Shown here: positions 35,173 to 39,202 of the stretch, one piece after another
Layout of the letters: each line of letters begins with the position of its first letter
How positions within the stretch are numbered: position 1 is the stretch's first letter
NCBI RefSeq assembly: GCF_009914755.1
Contig: NC_060927.1
Source of the DNA: the human T2T-CHM13v2.0 reference genome, Homo sapiens
Strand: one strand, 5' to 3'
Length of the DNA stretch: 64,000 bases
The notes under the pieces: generated by a model
The model's input: the letters and a program-made list of their open reading frames with translations, nothing else
Told to the model about the DNA's origin: nothing
Databases searched by the model: none
Translations under genes and position numbers: made by a program

Positions 35173-36614
35173 ATATGAAAGGAAGACTAACGTTTGCACT
35201 CCACCTAACCTACTACTTGGAGCATGGTAAGTGTCAGCTTCCCATCCTCTTCTGTTTGTTTTGGGATTGTTTTTGTTTGTTTTTTGTTTCCCGCTTCCTT
35301 TTTTAAAAAATGAAGCATTGTAGGACTTTATCTGTGACTCTTTCATGTCACTGACCATTTTCTGCCGCATACTAGGCTTATTTACTTTCCTCTCCTGGGT
35401 CTACCTCTACATTATAAATTATTTCACGAAGGGAACTTGAAATCTATTTAGGTATGCATCTATCTGTCATCTATCCATCTTTCTTTGTGGCCTTTACATA
35501 TAGAATATAACTTGCACTTAATTGGCACCTAATCTTTTTATATGAAATTTTTTTAAACTTTTAGGTTCAGGGGCATGCGTGCAGGTTTGTTACATAGGTA
35601 AACTCATGTTGCAGGGGCTTGTTGTACAGATTGTTTCATCACCCAGGTACTAAGCCTAGTACACAATAGTTACTTTTTCTGCTCTTCTCCCTCCTTTCAC
35701 CCTCCACCTTCAAGGAGGCCCCAGTGTCTGTTGTTCCCTTATTTTTGTCCATGAGTTCTCATCATTTAGCTCCCACTTGTAAGTAAGAGCATGCAGTATT
35801 TGGTTTTCTGTTCCTGTGTTAATTTGCTAAGGTTAATGGTCTCCAACTCCATCCATGTTCCTGCAAAAGACATGATGTAGTCCTTTTTTATGGCCACGTA
35901 GTAGTCAGTGGTATATATGTACCACATTTTCTTTATCCAGTCTATCATTGATGGGCATTTAGGTTGATTCCATGTCTTTGCTGTTGTGAGTAGTGATGCA
36001 GTAAACATACGCATGCACGTGTCTTTGTTATGGAATGATTTATATTCCTGTGGGTATATACCCAGTAATGGGATTGCTGAGTTGAATGGTAGTCCTCTTT
36101 TTAGCTCTTCAAGGAATTGCTACACTGCTTTCTGCAATACTTAAACTAACTTATATTCCCACCAACAGTATATAAGTGTTTCCTTTTCTCTGCAACTTTG
36201 CCAGCATCTGTTATTTTATTTTATTAAATTTTAAGTTCAGGGGTACATGTGTAGGTTTGTTATATAGGTAAACTTGTGTCATGGGGGTTTGTTGCACAGA
36301 TTATTTTGTCACCCAGGTATTAAGCCTAGTACCCATTAGTTATTTTTCCTGATCCTCTCACTCCTCCTACCCTTCACTCTCCAACAGGCCCTAGTGTGTG
36401 TTGTTCCGCTCTATATGTCCATGTATTCTCATCATTTATTCCCACTTATAAGCGAGAACATATATTACTTGGTTTTCTGTTCTTGTTTCAGTTTGCTGAG
36501 GATAATGGCCTCCAGCTCCATTCATGTTCCTGCAAAAGACATGATCTTGTTCTTTTTTAGGTCTGCATACTATTCCACAGTGTGTATGTACCACTTTTTT
36601 TTTTTTTTTCTTTT

Positions 36615-37569
36615 CCCCGGGTCACAGAACCAATTCATTCACCCGGCGGCACCACTGCTGTCATTTCAGCTTCTGGCCACTGGGAGGCGCTGCTCGAAAG
36701 GGTTTGCCCTGAGACTCCGAGAAGAAGCTGCGGGAAGGACAGCAGGGGTCCTGGGGTTTTAGTCTCTGGCCCAGGATTTATGTGTCCATAACCAAAGGAA
36801 GCACAGTCTGCACCCAGCTCTCATCCCATCGGAGCTGCTGCGACTCCCGCAGGTTCTTCCGGAACTGGTTTAGCTTGCCCTCAGGATCAGGAAAGTTTGA
36901 GAAAAGCATCTGCAGCTGAGCTGCCAGTTCCTCTGAGTCCTCAAAGACCAAGCTGTTTTCTTCATGTTTCACCAGCTCATGTAAACACTTGAAGTTCACA
37001 GCACACACAGGCAAACAGCACCCGAACATGTCCACCACCTTCATGGGCAGGTCCAGGCCACTGGAGGACGTGTGCAGACAGACACCCAGGTCCACCGACC
37101 CTAGAAGCAGGGGGTAGTCCTCGGCCTCCAGCCAGGGGGTGCAGACCTGGATGTGCTGGAAATGCTTCTGGTGGATGAGGTGGCTGTAATACTCCCTCAG
37201 AGGCCATTTGCCTGTTATCACACAGACGAGAGAAGGAAGGTTGTGTTCGTCAAGAGTCAGTTGCTCAAACTTTTCTAAAGCTGCCAGCAGGATGGAGAAG
37301 TCTTCGTCCTCTCAAGTGTTCCATGGGTCGTGCAGACCTGTCCAGCCTGTGCTGCTGACCAGCAGGGCTGGCCGCTCATGGAGACGCATCACCAGCCCGC
37401 TCCCAGCATCCCGCTTCATGAAGGCCGACCGCTCCTGGCTGGGTCCTCAGGTTCTGAGCGGGCCCTGAACGGAGAGTGCGTGCTGCCCAGCTTCATGAAG
37501 AGTCGGTGCTGCAGGTCCAGAGGTGTCTCTTGAAAGAAAGATGCCGGCTTGTCATAGATGGTCACAGCC
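36615..37569 (-). pseudogene. ALG1-like (chitobiosyldiphosphodolichol beta-mannosyltransferase) processed pseudogene, C-terminal half and 3' UTR; possibly the locus named ALG1L15P (from memory)
   Basis: [28 protein letters not shown]...[15 protein letters not shown]...[27 protein letters not shown]...[17 protein letters not shown] (TAA at 36778-36780). 1-nt deletion near 37436 and a 27-nt stop-containing insert at 37301-37327. Confidence 0.92.
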
Positions 37570-37725
37570 TCAGGATAGCTGGGTTCTTGGCCATTCTTGC
37601 AGTGGTTTTCAAGGGTGAAAAAAGGAGTTTCAGCAAGACAGCTAACGTCTGGAGGAGTGAGCCAGGAAGTGTCTGTAGGCTTCCTCTAGAGAGCACTCTG
37701 GGCTGGTGGGCGTGAGGACTCCAGT

Positions 37726-37815
37726 TTTCATGTGCGTCCGTGTGAAGAGACCACCAAACAGGCTTTGTGTGAGCAATAAAGCTGTTTCTTTCACATGGGT
37801 GCAGGCCGGCTGAGT
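37726..37815 (-). mobile_element. Second LTR7 R-U5 segment within the retrocopy
   Basis: actcagccggcctgcacccatgtgaaagaaacagctttattgctcacacaaagcctgtttggtggtctcttcacacggacgcacatgaaa. Confidence 0.9.
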
Positions 37816-38068
37816 CAGATTTAAAATTGGTGAGATGTTCCTTGGGCTGGTGGGTCTGAGGACCTGAGGTTGTAAGTGGATCATTTTCATGGAGCAAAGA
37901 ACAGGAGGACATGGGATTGATCTCCCAAGGGAGGTCCCCTGATCCAAGTCATGGCACCAAATTTCATGCATGTCTGTGTGAAGAGACCACCAAACAGGCT
38001 TTGTATGAGCAACATGGCCGTTTATTTCACCTGGGTGCAGGCGGGCTGAGTCTGAAAAGAGAGTCAGC
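37816..38068 (-). mobile_element. HERV-H first exon: LTR7 R-U5, tRNA-His PBS and leader up to the major splice donor
   Basis: gctgactctcttttcagactcagcccgcctgcacccaggtgaaataaac...catgaaa tt TGGTGCCATGACTTGGAT (PBS, 37942-37959) ...catctcaccaattttaaatctg. Confidence 0.92.
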
Positions 38069-39202
38069 CTGTACCACTTTTTTTTAATCCAATCTATCAT
38101 TGATGGACTTTTAGGTTAATTCCATGTCTTTGCTATTGTAAATAGTGTGTAATTAACACATGAATACATGTGTCTTTATAATAGAACAACTTATTTTCCT
38201 TTGGGTATATACCCAGTAATGGGATTGCTGGGTCAAATAGCATTTCTATTTTTAGGTCTTTGAGGATTTGCCACAGTGTCTTCCACAATGGCTGAACTAA
38301 TTTACACTCCCACCAACAGTGTATAAACATTCCTTTTTCTCTAAACCTCTCCAGCATCTCTTATTTTTTGACTTTTAAATAGTAGCTATTCTGATTGGTG
38401 TGAGATGGTATCCCATTGTGGTTTTGACTTGCATTTTTCTAATCAGTGATGTTGAGTTTTCTTTCACGTTTGTTGGCTGCATGTAGCTTCTTTTGAAAAA
38501 TGTCTGTTCATGTACTTTCCCCACTTTTTAATGGGGTTGTTTGTCTTTTTCTTGTAAATTTGTTTAAGTTCCTTATAGATGCTTAATAATAGACCTTTGT
38601 GAAATGCATAGTTTGCAAAAATGTTCTCACATTCTGTAGGTTGTCTGCTTACTCTGTTGACAGTTTCCTTTGCTGTGAAGAAGCTCTGTGGTTTAATTAG
38701 ATCCCATTTGTCAATTTTTACTTTTGTTACAATTGCTTTAGGCATCTTCATAATGAAATCTTTGCCTATGCCTATGTCCTGAGTGGTATTGCCTAGATTG
38801 TCTTCTAGGGTTTTTACAGTTTTGGGTTTTACATTTAAGTCTTTAATCCATCTCGGGTTAATTTTTATTTATGGTATAAGGAAGGGATCCCGTTTCAATC
38901 TTATGCATATGGCTAGCCAGTTAATCCCAGCACCATTTATTGAATAGGGAATCCTTCCCCCATTGCTTGTTTTTGTCTGGTTTGTTGAAGATCAGATAGT
39001 TGTAGGTGTGCAGCCTTATTTCTGGGTTCTCTATTCTGTTCCATTGGTCTATGTATCTGTTTTTGTACCAATTCCATGCTATTTTGATTACTGTAGCCCT
39101 GTTGTGGCATAGTTTCAAGTCAGGTAGTGTGATGCCTCCACCTTTGTTCTTTTTGTTTAGGATTGCCTTGGTTATTTGGGCTCTTTTTTTGGTTCCATAT
39201 GA

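What the first reader, a model, noticed from the sequence alone, without database searches (positions are those of the whole stretch)
36587..38087. Fossil full-length mRNA of a HERV-H-promoted, multiply spliced ALG1-like chimeric gene
Seen on the - strand, between 16-bp TSDs at a TTTT/AA site: (1) LTR7 R-U5, His PBS and leader ending at aaatctg (38068-37816); (2) a second LTR7 R-U5 piece (37815-37726) running into about 155 nt of non-viral sequence; (3) intronless ALG1 3' exons starting at ggctgtgacc (37569); (4) 3' UTR and poly(A). Established: HERV-H LTR7 drives chimeric transcripts in pluripotent and early embryonic cells; partial ALG1L copies sit in segmental duplicons; only germline or early-embryo RNAs yield heritable retrocopies. 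Inference: a promoterless partial ALG1 duplicate elsewhere was captured by a HERV-H promoter and expressed in the germline lineage. Its entire mRNA was then copied here by L1. Standard annotation would split this into an ALG1 pseudogene plus unrelated LTR fragments and miss that it is one transcript.
Basis: partly seen in the sequence, partly recalled or inferred. Interest (0 to 1): 0.85.

Follow-up and report, generated by a model that had tools for sequence, protein, structure and literature searches.

The report
Retrocopy of a HERV-H-driven ALG1-like mRNA
The pseudogene ALG1L15P is a complete DNA copy of an old ten-exon messenger RNA that started in an endogenous retrovirus and ran into a duplicated half of the ALG1 gene, so it records that this retroviral promoter was driving the ALG1-like gene family in the germline millions of years ago.

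Summary
Window 36603-38069 (- strand) is one L1-made processed copy. It lies between exact 16-nt target-site duplications at a TTTT/AA site, carries an A-tail, and sits inside an older L1 ORF2.

All ten segments are colinear in single genomic loci of the ALG1L duplicon family. Two loci, chr4:3,927,176-3,942,105 and the ALG1L2 locus on chr3, have GT..AG at all nine joins.

Three refinements:
- The two LTR pieces are the 5' and 3' LTR of one provirus. Its pre-insertion empty site survives on chr21, with a 5-bp duplication CTGGG. Exon 1 runs from 30 nt downstream of the TATA box to the leader donor. Exon 2 starts at a CAG acceptor inside the 3' LTR and reads through into 155 nt of chr21-derived flank.
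- The ALG1 part begins 235 bp upstream of the third exon, inside an ALG1 intron, so it has no promoter of its own.
- Trees place the source in the chr4p16/chr11p15 lineage. No extant copy is more than 96.1% identical, so the event is old, roughly 10-20 Myr.

It is a new, unusually complete member of known kinds. RNA evidence and primate dating could not be tested here.

The parts
38070..38085 (-). 5' target-site duplication (AAAAAAAAGTGGTACA on the - strand). It encodes L1 ORF2p residues about 1221-1225 of the host L1.
   Evidence: Exact 16-nt direct repeat. L1 ORF2p register.
38069..38069 (-). Extra G at the 5' end. It is absent from the parental LTRs, which have T before GCTGAC. It is compatible with reverse transcription of the cap.
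   Evidence: The cap origin is inferred.
37816..38068 (-). Exon 1: R-U5 of the provirus 5' LTR (38068-37962), an 18-nt primer-binding-site-like stretch (37959-37942) and the leader up to the donor AAATCTG|gt.
   Evidence: The start lies 30 nt downstream of TATAAAA in the chr7 and chr4 5' LTRs.
37725..37815 (-). Exon 2, first part: R-U5 of the same provirus's 3' LTR, entered at the acceptor ctcttttcag|ACTCAGCC. The LTR's AATAAA reads AAGAAA here.
37570..37724 (-). Exon 2, second part: 155 nt of host flank 3' of the provirus (chr21-derived), ending at the donor CCTGA|gtaagt. It holds an ATG that is out of frame with ALG1.
37459..37569 (-). Exon 3, the first ALG1-derived exon (chr16:5107407-5107517).
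37311..37458 (-). Exon 4: an ALG1 exon plus a 27-nt extension through an alternative donor (GG|gttggt). It carries a 1-nt deletion and a TGA.
37272..37310 (-). Exon 5 (39 nt).
37212..37271 (-). Exon 6.
37101..37211 (-). Exon 7.
36986..37100 (-). Exon 8.
36910..36985 (-). Exon 9.
36616..36909 (-). Exon 10: end of the ALG1 reading frame, stop codon and 3' UTR up to the cleavage site.
36603..36615 (-). Remnant of the poly(A) tail (A-rich, with one or two G).
36587..36602 (-). 3' target-site duplication.
38086..38360 (-). Host L1, ORF2 C-terminal region upstream of the insert.
   Evidence: ORF2p 1136-1198, E = 1e-25.
36468..36586 (-). Host L1, ORF2 C-terminal region downstream of the insert.
   Evidence: ORF2p 1221-1265, E = 1e-11, read with X at two stops.

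Best explanation
Window 36603-38069 (- strand) is an L1-mediated, apparently full-length processed copy of one ten-exon chimeric mRNA. Its source was a member of the ALG1L segmental-duplication family.

In that family a chr21-derived segment was fused to the 3' part of ALG1. The fusion point is inside an ALG1 intron, and the last eight coding exons follow. A HERV-H-type provirus sits in the chr21-derived part.

The proposed course of events:
1. Transcription started at the 5' LTR, 30 nt downstream of its TATA box.
2. The leader donor (AAATCTG|gt) was spliced across the whole proviral interior to a CAG acceptor 13 nt into R of the 3' LTR.
3. The RNA ran through the 3' LTR's poly(A) signal into 155 nt of host flank.
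4. It was spliced from a gtaagt donor to the first retained ALG1 exon and then through the remaining ALG1 exons. One join used an alternative donor.
5. It was polyadenylated after the ALG1 3' UTR.
6. L1 endonuclease and reverse transcriptase copied this RNA into a TTTT/AA site within an older L1 at what is now chr3q25.

Status of the steps:
- Shown: retrocopy hallmarks, colinearity, splice sites, the provirus and its empty site, and lineage assignment to the chr4p16/chr11p15 branch.
- Inferred: that the 5' end is the true cap site, that expression was in germline or early-embryo cells, and the age of roughly 10-20 Myr.
For: Retrocopy hallmarks
- 16 of 16-nt TSD, an A-tail and a TTTT/AA target.
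- The flanks are contiguous L1 ORF2p residues, up to about 1220 and from 1221.

One locus, one strand
- Ten blocks are colinear at chr7 and at chr4.
- Splice dinucleotides at the exact retrocopy joins are GT..AG for 9 of 9 introns in the chr4p16 locus and 9 of 9 in the chr3 ALG1L2 locus, out of 7 duplicon loci examined (contexts).

One provirus
- Relative to chr21:30,819,412-30,822,566, chr7 has a 5,204-bp insert and chr4 a 5,637-bp insert. Each is bounded by TGTCAGG...CATGAAA and a 5-bp duplication CTGGG.
- chr11p15 and a second chr4 copy hold a 411-bp solo LTR at the same point.
- The chr7 interior holds zf-CCHC, RVP and RVT_1 remnants in sense order.

5' end
- The copy starts at GCTGAC, 30 nt after TATAAAA, plus one untemplated G.

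Promoterless ALG1
- The chr21/chr16 junction lies 235 bp upstream of exon 3.

Lineage
- Exon 2 tree: retrocopy + chr4p16 + chr11p15, support 99/96.
- Exon 1 tree: retrocopy + the chr4p16 5' LTR, support 93/87, against 13 independent HERV-H copies.
- Exons 3-10 tree: retrocopy + chr4p16, support 76/85.
- At q158 (retrocopy numbering, q1 = window 38069) the retrocopy's A is shared by 4 of 4 duplicon proviruses and 0 of 13 independent copies.

Only processed copy
- The 156-nt probe has 9 genomic hits. The other eight are the intron-bearing duplicons and chr21.
Against: - No extant locus is a close match. Over exons 2-10 the best are chr11p15 at 96.1% and chr4p16 at 95.7%, and chr16 ALG1 itself is 95.8% over its part. 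The parent cannot be pinned to one locus, and gene conversion between duplicons could distort the trees.
- The exons 3-10 tree supports the chr4 pairing only weakly (76/85).
- Exon 1 is no more similar to chr4p16 (95.1%) than to the best of about 2,500 HERV-H candidates (95%). Most sites it shares with chr4 are CpG transitions that recur in other copies.
- The e4/e5 join reads CACTTGAG|AGGACG, where the alternative donor predicts CACTTGGG|AGGACG. One later G>A change has to be assumed.
- The cleavage site has no AATAAA within 30 nt, only AATGAA in the retrocopy.
- No CAGE or RNA data were available, so neither the start site nor the present existence of this isoform is shown.
- The names HERV-H and LTR7, and the tRNA-His primer site, rest on recall. 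No repeat library was available.
Confidence: 0.9

Rival explanations
1. Template switching. L1 reverse transcriptase jumped between separate RNAs (a HERV-H RNA, a second LTR-containing RNA and an ALG1/ALG1L mRNA), producing a mosaic that never existed as one transcript.
For: Chimeric retrocopies made by template switching are known (recalled). Exon 1 matches many HERV-H loci at 93-95%.
Against: - Every join coincides with a GT donor and an AG acceptor that are colinear in single loci.
- The e1/e2 and e2/e3 joins lie exactly at the leader donor, an LTR acceptor and a gtaagt donor.
- Exons 1 and 2 both group with the chr4p16 copy.
Confidence: 0.02
2. The copy is a real single transcript but 5'-truncated. 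Transcription began upstream of the provirus, for instance from the chr21-derived segment's own promoter or as read-through, and reverse transcription happened to stop near the U3/R border.
For: - Most L1-made copies are 5'-truncated (recalled).
- No CAGE data were examined.
- The provirus sits directly upstream of what looks like a first exon with an ATG.
Against: - The 5' end lies 30 nt downstream of TATAAAA in the 5' LTR and carries one extra G not present in any parental LTR.
- A chance stop within a few nt of the expected start is unlikely.
Confidence: 0.05
3. The source was not the chr4p16 locus. It was either the chr11p15 copy before that copy collapsed to a solo LTR, or a paralogue now lost.
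For: - chr11p15 is marginally the closest overall (96.1% against 95.7%; K2P 0.041 against 0.044).
- The exon 2 tree leaves retrocopy, chr4p16 and chr11p15 as an unresolved trio.
Against: - Today chr11p15 has a solo LTR, no AG at the exon 2 acceptor, AT at the exon 4 acceptor and no alternative donor.
- chr4p16 has all 18 splice-site dinucleotides and pairs with the retrocopy in the exon 1 tree.
- This rival is a variant of the main explanation, not an alternative mechanism.
Confidence: 0.35

Closest known systems
HERV-H (LTR7) promoter-driven chimeric transcripts in pluripotent and early embryonic cells, such as ESRG and LINC-ROR
   Same: The LTR supplies the start site. The retroviral leader donor splices to downstream host exons on the same strand. 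The review PMC12228294 (passages read) states that a subset of HERVH has working donor and acceptor sites and typically forms the 5' part of chimeric transcripts.
   Different: - Here the evidence is a genomic cDNA fossil, not RNA.
- The transcript also re-enters the provirus's own 3' LTR through a CAG acceptor and reads through its poly(A) signal.
- The host gene is a promoterless ALG1 fragment within a multi-copy duplicon.
- ALG1 is not mentioned in that review (0 occurrences).
L1-mediated processed pseudogenes as fossils of old transcripts, including HERV-W processed pseudogenes
   Same: An intronless copy with an A-tail and TSDs at a TTTT/AA site. For HERV-W, an ERV RNA was mobilised by L1 (PMC5537654, abstract start seen in the search listing).
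   Different: - That abstract calls HERV-W the sole HERV group specifically mobilised by L1.
- This case is a spliced HERV-H-initiated host-gene chimera, not a proviral RNA.
- It appears to be a single event: the exon-2 probe has 9 genomic hits and the other eight are unprocessed.
ALG1L pseudogene and gene family (ALG1L, ALG1L2, ALG1LnP) in FAM86/ALG1L segmental duplications
   Same: It shares the ALG1 3' exons, the chr21-derived exon 2 and the diagnostic substitutions of the chr4p16/chr11p15 branch.
   Different: - The other members examined are intron-bearing genomic duplicates. ALG1L15P is the only processed one found.
- RefSeq annotates only 36752-37573, with a gap at 37272-37337. That leaves out exons 1, 2 and 5, the 27-nt extension and most of the 3' UTR (hub annotation compared).

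Membership tests
L1-mediated processed pseudogene (retrocopy) | Intronless copy of a spliced RNA whose exons are separated by introns at the source | tested here: met
   Ten blocks are contiguous in the window but 15-27 kb apart at chr4 and chr7, with GT..AG at the joins.
L1-mediated processed pseudogene (retrocopy) | 3' poly(A) tail directly followed by a target-site duplication of about 7-20 nt | tested here: met
   An A-rich tail at 36603-36615 and an exact 16-nt TSD.
L1-mediated processed pseudogene (retrocopy) | Insertion at an L1 endonuclease consensus site (TTTT/AA) | tested here: met
   The + strand reads ...CACTTTTTTTT/AATCC at 38085/38086. The consensus itself is recalled.
L1-mediated processed pseudogene (retrocopy) | The target is uninterrupted once the insert and one TSD copy are removed | tested here: met
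   The flanks give consecutive L1 ORF2p residues, up to about 1220 and from 1221.
Provirus-initiated (HERV-H/LTR7) chimeric transcript | Starts in the 5' LTR at the promoter's start site | tested here: inconclusive
   The start is 30 nt downstream of TATAAAA, plus an extra G. No CAGE or cap data were available.
Provirus-initiated (HERV-H/LTR7) chimeric transcript | Uses the leader splice donor downstream of the primer-binding site | tested here: met
   AAATCTG|gt at chr4, chr7 and chr3b. The chr11q13 copy reads gc after an indel, so its register is uncertain.
Provirus-initiated (HERV-H/LTR7) chimeric transcript | The element is a genuine provirus: paired LTRs, a short TSD and gag-pro-pol remnants | tested here: met
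   An empty site on chr21, a 5-bp TSD CTGGG, LTR pairs with K2P 0.048 (chr7) and 0.075 (chr4), and zf-CCHC, RVP and RVT_1 in sense order.
Provirus-initiated (HERV-H/LTR7) chimeric transcript | The LTR is classified as LTR7 and the primer site is complementary to tRNA-His | not testable with these tools
No Dfam or Repbase library was available. The first-look search returned about 2,500 genomic candidates for the query, which fits a large ERV family.
ALG1L duplicon family | Carries the family's chr21-derived exon and the ALG1 3' exons downstream of the chr21/chr16 junction | tested here: met
   Exon 2 is found in 7 duplicon loci and chr21. Exons 3-10 are found in the duplicons and chr16. The junction is mapped at chr4:3,934,637-3,934,639.
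ALG1L duplicon family | Arose by genomic (DNA) duplication | tested here: not met
   ALG1L15P is intronless with a tail and TSDs. It is a derivative of the family through RNA, not a duplicon copy.

The most novel reading that the evidence does not exclude
The ALG1-like gene family was born as a three-part mosaic. Its parts are a chr21 first exon, a HERV-H provirus integrated exactly at that exon's 5' edge, and a promoterless ALG1 3' half.

The provirus's 5' LTR has been the family's working germline or early-embryo promoter since before the copies spread to chr3, 4, 7 and 11. ALG1L15P is the time-stamped cDNA of that ancestral gene.

The annotated protein-coding ALG1L2 keeps all 18 splice-site dinucleotides of this isoform. 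It would then still be a HERV-H-driven gene in human pluripotent cells.
Probability: 0.4. Interest if true: 0.6.

Novelty: new member of a known kind. Interest (0 to 1): 0.45.

Why it matters
A heritable processed copy can only arise from RNA present in germline or early-embryo cells. This 1.47-kb insert is therefore direct, datable evidence of three things that held roughly 10-20 million years ago:
- a HERV-H promoter was active there;
- its leader donor and an acceptor in its own 3' LTR were in use;
- it drove a promoterless ALG1 fragment created by segmental duplication.

It also gives exact junction sequences for searching present-day stem-cell, embryo and testis RNA for the same isoform from ALG1L2 and its paralogues.

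Finally, it shows that the current annotation of ALG1L15P covers only about half of the real unit.

I found no paper linking ALG1L to HERV-H or LTR7. ALG1L with HERVH gave 0 papers and ALG1L with LTR7 gave 0. ALG1L with HERV-H gave 1 paper, an unrelated table. Supplementary tables of HERV-H chimeric-transcript studies were not searchable and may list it.

Tried and rejected
- Rfam scan of 36000-38800 at E <= 1: 0 matches.
- Pfam scan of the 5' flank translation: 0 families. The L1 identity was obtained instead from solved ORF2p structures.
I therefore fetched only exons and short flanks. The introns of chr11q13, chr3q22, chr3p12, the second chr4 copy and chr16 were not read in full.
- Guessed positions for exon 1 in the second chr4 copy, chr3p12 and chr21 (L050, L053, L054) gave no match. 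This was later explained by a solo LTR, a rearranged LTR and the empty site.
- A strict count of retrocopy-specific derived sites in exon 1 gave only 5 sites. One of them is diagnostic for the duplicon proviruses. A looser count gave 13 sites, mostly recurrent CpG transitions.
- In the exon 1 tree one row, L027, is the chr4p16 3' LTR and not an independent copy, so there are 13 independent copies, not 14.
- Rejected: a DNA-level duplicate (no introns, tail and TSD present).
- Rejected: a copy of ALG1 itself (exon 2 and the 27-nt extension are absent from a chr16-only origin, and exon 2 has no chr16 hit).
- Rejected: independent LTR insertions into an ALG1 pseudogene (the joins coincide with splice sites).
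Full report
**Coordinates.** Retrocopy positions are numbered q1-q1467, with q1 = window 38069 on the - strand. Locus shorthand: chr4a = chr4p16 (about 3.93 Mb), chr4b = the second chr4 copy (about 9.7 Mb), chr11a = chr11p15 (about 3.44 Mb), chr11b = chr11q13 (about 67.8 Mb), chr3a = chr3p12 (about 75.4 Mb), chr3b = chr3q22, the ALG1L2 locus (about 132.8 Mb).

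**Observation.**
- Read on the - strand, window 36603-38069 lies between two exact copies of a 16-nt sequence: TGTACCACTTTTTTTT on the + strand at 36587-36602 and 38070-38085.
- On the + strand the upstream copy is followed by AATCC, so the nick site reads TTTT/AA.
- On the - strand the insert ends in an A-rich tail that merges with the A-run of the duplication.
- The flanks belong to one older L1 in the same orientation. The 5' flank translates to L1 ORF2p residues 1136-1198 (E = 1e-25). The 3' flank, beginning with the duplicated 16 nt, translates to residues 1221-1265 (E = 1e-11, read with X at two stops).
- Removing the insert and one repeat copy therefore restores a continuous L1.

**The segments are one spliced transcript.** The window's genome (human T2T) could be searched.
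They lie on chr3 (two), chr4 (two), chr7, chr11 (two) and chr21.
- The whole insert splits into ten blocks.
- At chr7:7,023,274-7,050,177 and chr4:3,927,176-3,942,105 all ten blocks lie in order on one strand.
- The joins coincide with splice signals:

| Join | Sequence context |
|---|---|
| e1/e2 | AAATCTG\|gtaagc ... ctcttttcag\|ACTCAGCC |
| e2/e3 | CCTGA\|gtaagt ... cattgcag\|GGCTGTGACC |
| later joins | GT..AG in the same way |

- The e4/e5 join first looked non-canonical. An alignment of eleven sequences shows that it uses an alternative donor, GG|gttggt, 27 nt downstream of ALG1's own donor.
- That donor is present in chr16 ALG1, chr4a, both chr3 duplicons and ALG1L. It is absent (GGGCTTGG) from chr7 and both chr11 copies.
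- It predicts CACTTGGG|AGGACG. The retrocopy reads CACTTGAG|AGGACG, one G>A change away, which creates a TGA in the ALG1 frame.
- A table of the dinucleotides at the exact retrocopy joins gives GT..AG at 9 of 9 introns for chr4a and for chr3b. The other five duplicon loci each fail at one to four sites or lack exon 1.

**The two LTR pieces belong to one provirus.**
- The chr21 copy (chr21:30,819,412-30,822,566) is colinear with the duplicons on both sides, but it lacks 5,204 bp present on chr7 and 5,637 bp present on chr4.
- The insert begins TGTCAGG, ends CATGAAA and is flanked by a 5-bp duplication, CTGGG, of which chr21 has a single copy.
- At the same point chr11a and chr4b carry a 411-bp solo LTR, and chr3a a rearranged LTR. 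chr7, chr4a, chr11b and chr3b carry the full element.
- The chr7 interior has zinc-knuckle, retroviral protease and reverse-transcriptase remnants in sense order.
- The two LTRs differ by K2P 0.048 on chr7 and 0.075 on chr4.
- So exon 1 is R-U5, the primer-binding region and the leader of the 5' LTR side.
- Exon 2 starts 13 nt into R of the 3' LTR at a CAG. At the matching 5' LTR position, 8 of 13 independent HERV-H copies have CGG and 5 have CAG.
- Exon 2 then reads through U5 into 155 nt of chr21-derived flank. All seven duplicon 3' or solo LTRs keep AATAAA. The retrocopy has AAGAAA.
- Why the 3' LTR's poly(A) signal was bypassed is not shown. Suppression by the strong downstream gtaagt donor is my inference.

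**5' end.**
- The copy starts with G followed by GCTGACTC.
- In the chr7 and chr4 5' LTRs, GCTGAC lies 30 nt downstream of TATAAAA and is preceded by T.
- This fits a full-length copy starting at the LTR's start site, with one untemplated G as often left by the cap. No cap or CAGE data were examined.

**The ALG1 part has no promoter.**
- A 1.18-kb probe from the chr4a intron upstream of exon 3 matches chr21:30,797,972-30,798,905 over its positions 11-940.
- It matches chr16:5,107,170-5,107,413 over positions 938-1181.
- The chr21/chr16 junction therefore lies 235 bp upstream of exon 3, inside an ALG1 intron.
- Exons 3-10 correspond to eight consecutive chr16 ALG1 exons ending with the stop codon and 3' UTR. 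I did not check ALG1's exon numbering.
- Exon 2 contains an ATG. Its frame stops after ten codons in exon 3, out of frame with ALG1.
- The retrocopy's ALG1 frame is broken by a 1-nt deletion in exon 4 and the TGA noted above.

**Which copy was the source, and when.**
- Identity over exons 2-10 is 96.1% to chr11a, 95.7% to chr4a and 94.2-95.0% to the others. It is 95.8% to chr16 over the ALG1 part.
- Maximum-likelihood trees:

| Alignment | Grouping | Support |
|---|---|---|
| Exon 2 | retrocopy + chr4a + chr11a | 99/96 |
| Exon 1, against 13 independent HERV-H copies | retrocopy + chr4a 5' LTR | 93/87 |
| Exons 3-10 | retrocopy + chr4a | 76/85 (weak) |

- In exon 1, of 13 sites where the retrocopy departs from the commonest state of the independent copies, chr4a shares 8, the most of any copy (next is 6). 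Most of these are recurrent CpG transitions.
- One transversion, at q158, is shared by 4 of 4 duplicon proviruses and 0 of 13 independent copies.
- K2P distances are 0.041 (retrocopy to chr11a), 0.044 (retrocopy to chr4a) and 0.047 (chr4a to chr11a). The retrocopy therefore left that lineage at about the time those two copies separated.
- With a recalled neutral rate of about 1-2 x 10^-9 per site per year, this is roughly 10-20 Myr. It is younger than or similar to the provirus integration implied by the LTR divergence.
- These dates are rough.
- chr4a is the best living representative of the source. The chr11a copy before its collapse to a solo LTR, or a lost copy, cannot be excluded.

**Rivals.**
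- Template switching between separate RNAs is contradicted by the colinear GT-AG structure and by exons 1 and 2 both tracing to the same duplicon branch.
- A 5'-truncated copy of a transcript started further upstream is possible, but the TATA-spaced start and the extra G make it unlikely.
- A DNA duplicate, or an ALG1 retrocopy with later LTR insertions, is excluded by the structure.

**Comparison with what is known.**
- HERV-H elements acting as 5' ends of chimeric transcripts through their own donor and acceptor sites are well described (review PMC12228294, passages read). That review does not mention ALG1.
- L1-made processed copies of ERV RNA are described for HERV-W. One abstract, seen in a search listing, calls HERV-W the sole HERV group so mobilised (PMC5537654).
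- Searches for ALG1L with HERVH gave 0 papers, with LTR7 0 papers, and with HERV-H 1 paper, an unrelated table.
- The 25 listed of 28 ALG1L2 papers show nothing on its promoter in their titles or abstract starts.
- A 2025 preprint reports ALG1L1P RNA in embryonic stem cell CRISPRi experiments without the words LTR7 or HERV (passages read).
- Supplementary tables of HERV-H chimeric-transcript studies, and gene models outside the window, could not be examined and may already show an LTR first exon for ALG1L2.

**Verdict.**
The anatomy is now resolved to the base.
- It is a new and unusually complete member of known kinds: a HERV-H chimeric transcript preserved as a processed pseudogene.
- RefSeq's ALG1L15P model (36752-37573, with a gap at 37272-37337) covers only part of the unit.
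- Interest is moderate. It would rise if present-day RNA shows that ALG1L2 and its paralogues are still driven from this provirus.

Noticed in passing
L004 (chr21:30,819,412-30,822,566, - strand); also chr21:30,797,972-30,798,905: chr21 holds the pre-integration empty site of the duplicon provirus, with a single CTGGG. About 22 kb downstream it also holds the sequence that abuts the chr16 ALG1 junction in the duplicons. The 155-nt flank looks like a first exon: an ATG followed by a gtaagt donor. The provirus sits exactly at its 5' edge. I did not identify which chr21 gene, if any, this exon belongs to.
   Followed up: partly
L002/L045 (chr11:3,444,184-3,444,594) and L005 (chr4, about 9.73 Mb): These two duplicon copies have collapsed to 411-bp solo LTRs at the same integration point. 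The chr11 one has also lost the AG of the LTR acceptor and has AT at the exon 4 acceptor.
   Followed up: yes
L006 (chr3:75,439,078-75,442,231): The chr3p12 copy has a truncated 307-nt LTR plus a separate 70-nt LTR fragment about 30 nt upstream. The chr21-like 5' flank lies about 5 kb away (L053). This is a rearrangement I did not resolve.
   Followed up: no
chr4:3,932,664-3,934,873 compared with chr7:7,028,328-7,042,991: Intron 2 of the chimeric gene is 2.2-2.4 kb in the chr4p16 and chr11p15 copies. It is 14.7 kb or more (up to about 27 kb by coordinates) in chr7, chr11q13 and chr3. So the source lineage of the retrocopy carries a large internal deletion of the chr21-derived segment, or the other copies carry insertions.
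   Followed up: partly
window 37272-37337: The RefSeq alignment of ALG1L15P leaves a 66-nt gap here. It corresponds to the 27-nt alternative-donor extension plus the 39-nt exon 5, which is genuine ALG1 coding sequence and is 100% identical over its 39 nt to chr16, chr4p16 and chr7.
   Followed up: yes
window 37786-37791 (- strand): The poly(A) hexamer of the 3' LTR reads AAGAAA in the retrocopy but AATAAA in all seven duplicon LTRs examined. It is either a later change in the retrocopy or a variant of the source allele that favoured read-through.
   Followed up: partly
chr3:128.66 Mb (ALG1L), chr8:11.50 Mb, chr8:12.17/12.70/7.55 Mb, chr12:8.24 Mb, chr11:71.73 Mb: These further ALG1-like copies have ALG1 exons but gave no match to the 156-nt exon 2 probe. 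They seem to lack the provirus-bearing part or have lost it. ALG1L on chr3 still keeps 627 bp upstream of exon 3, which reaches past the chr16 junction into the chr21-derived part.
   Followed up: no
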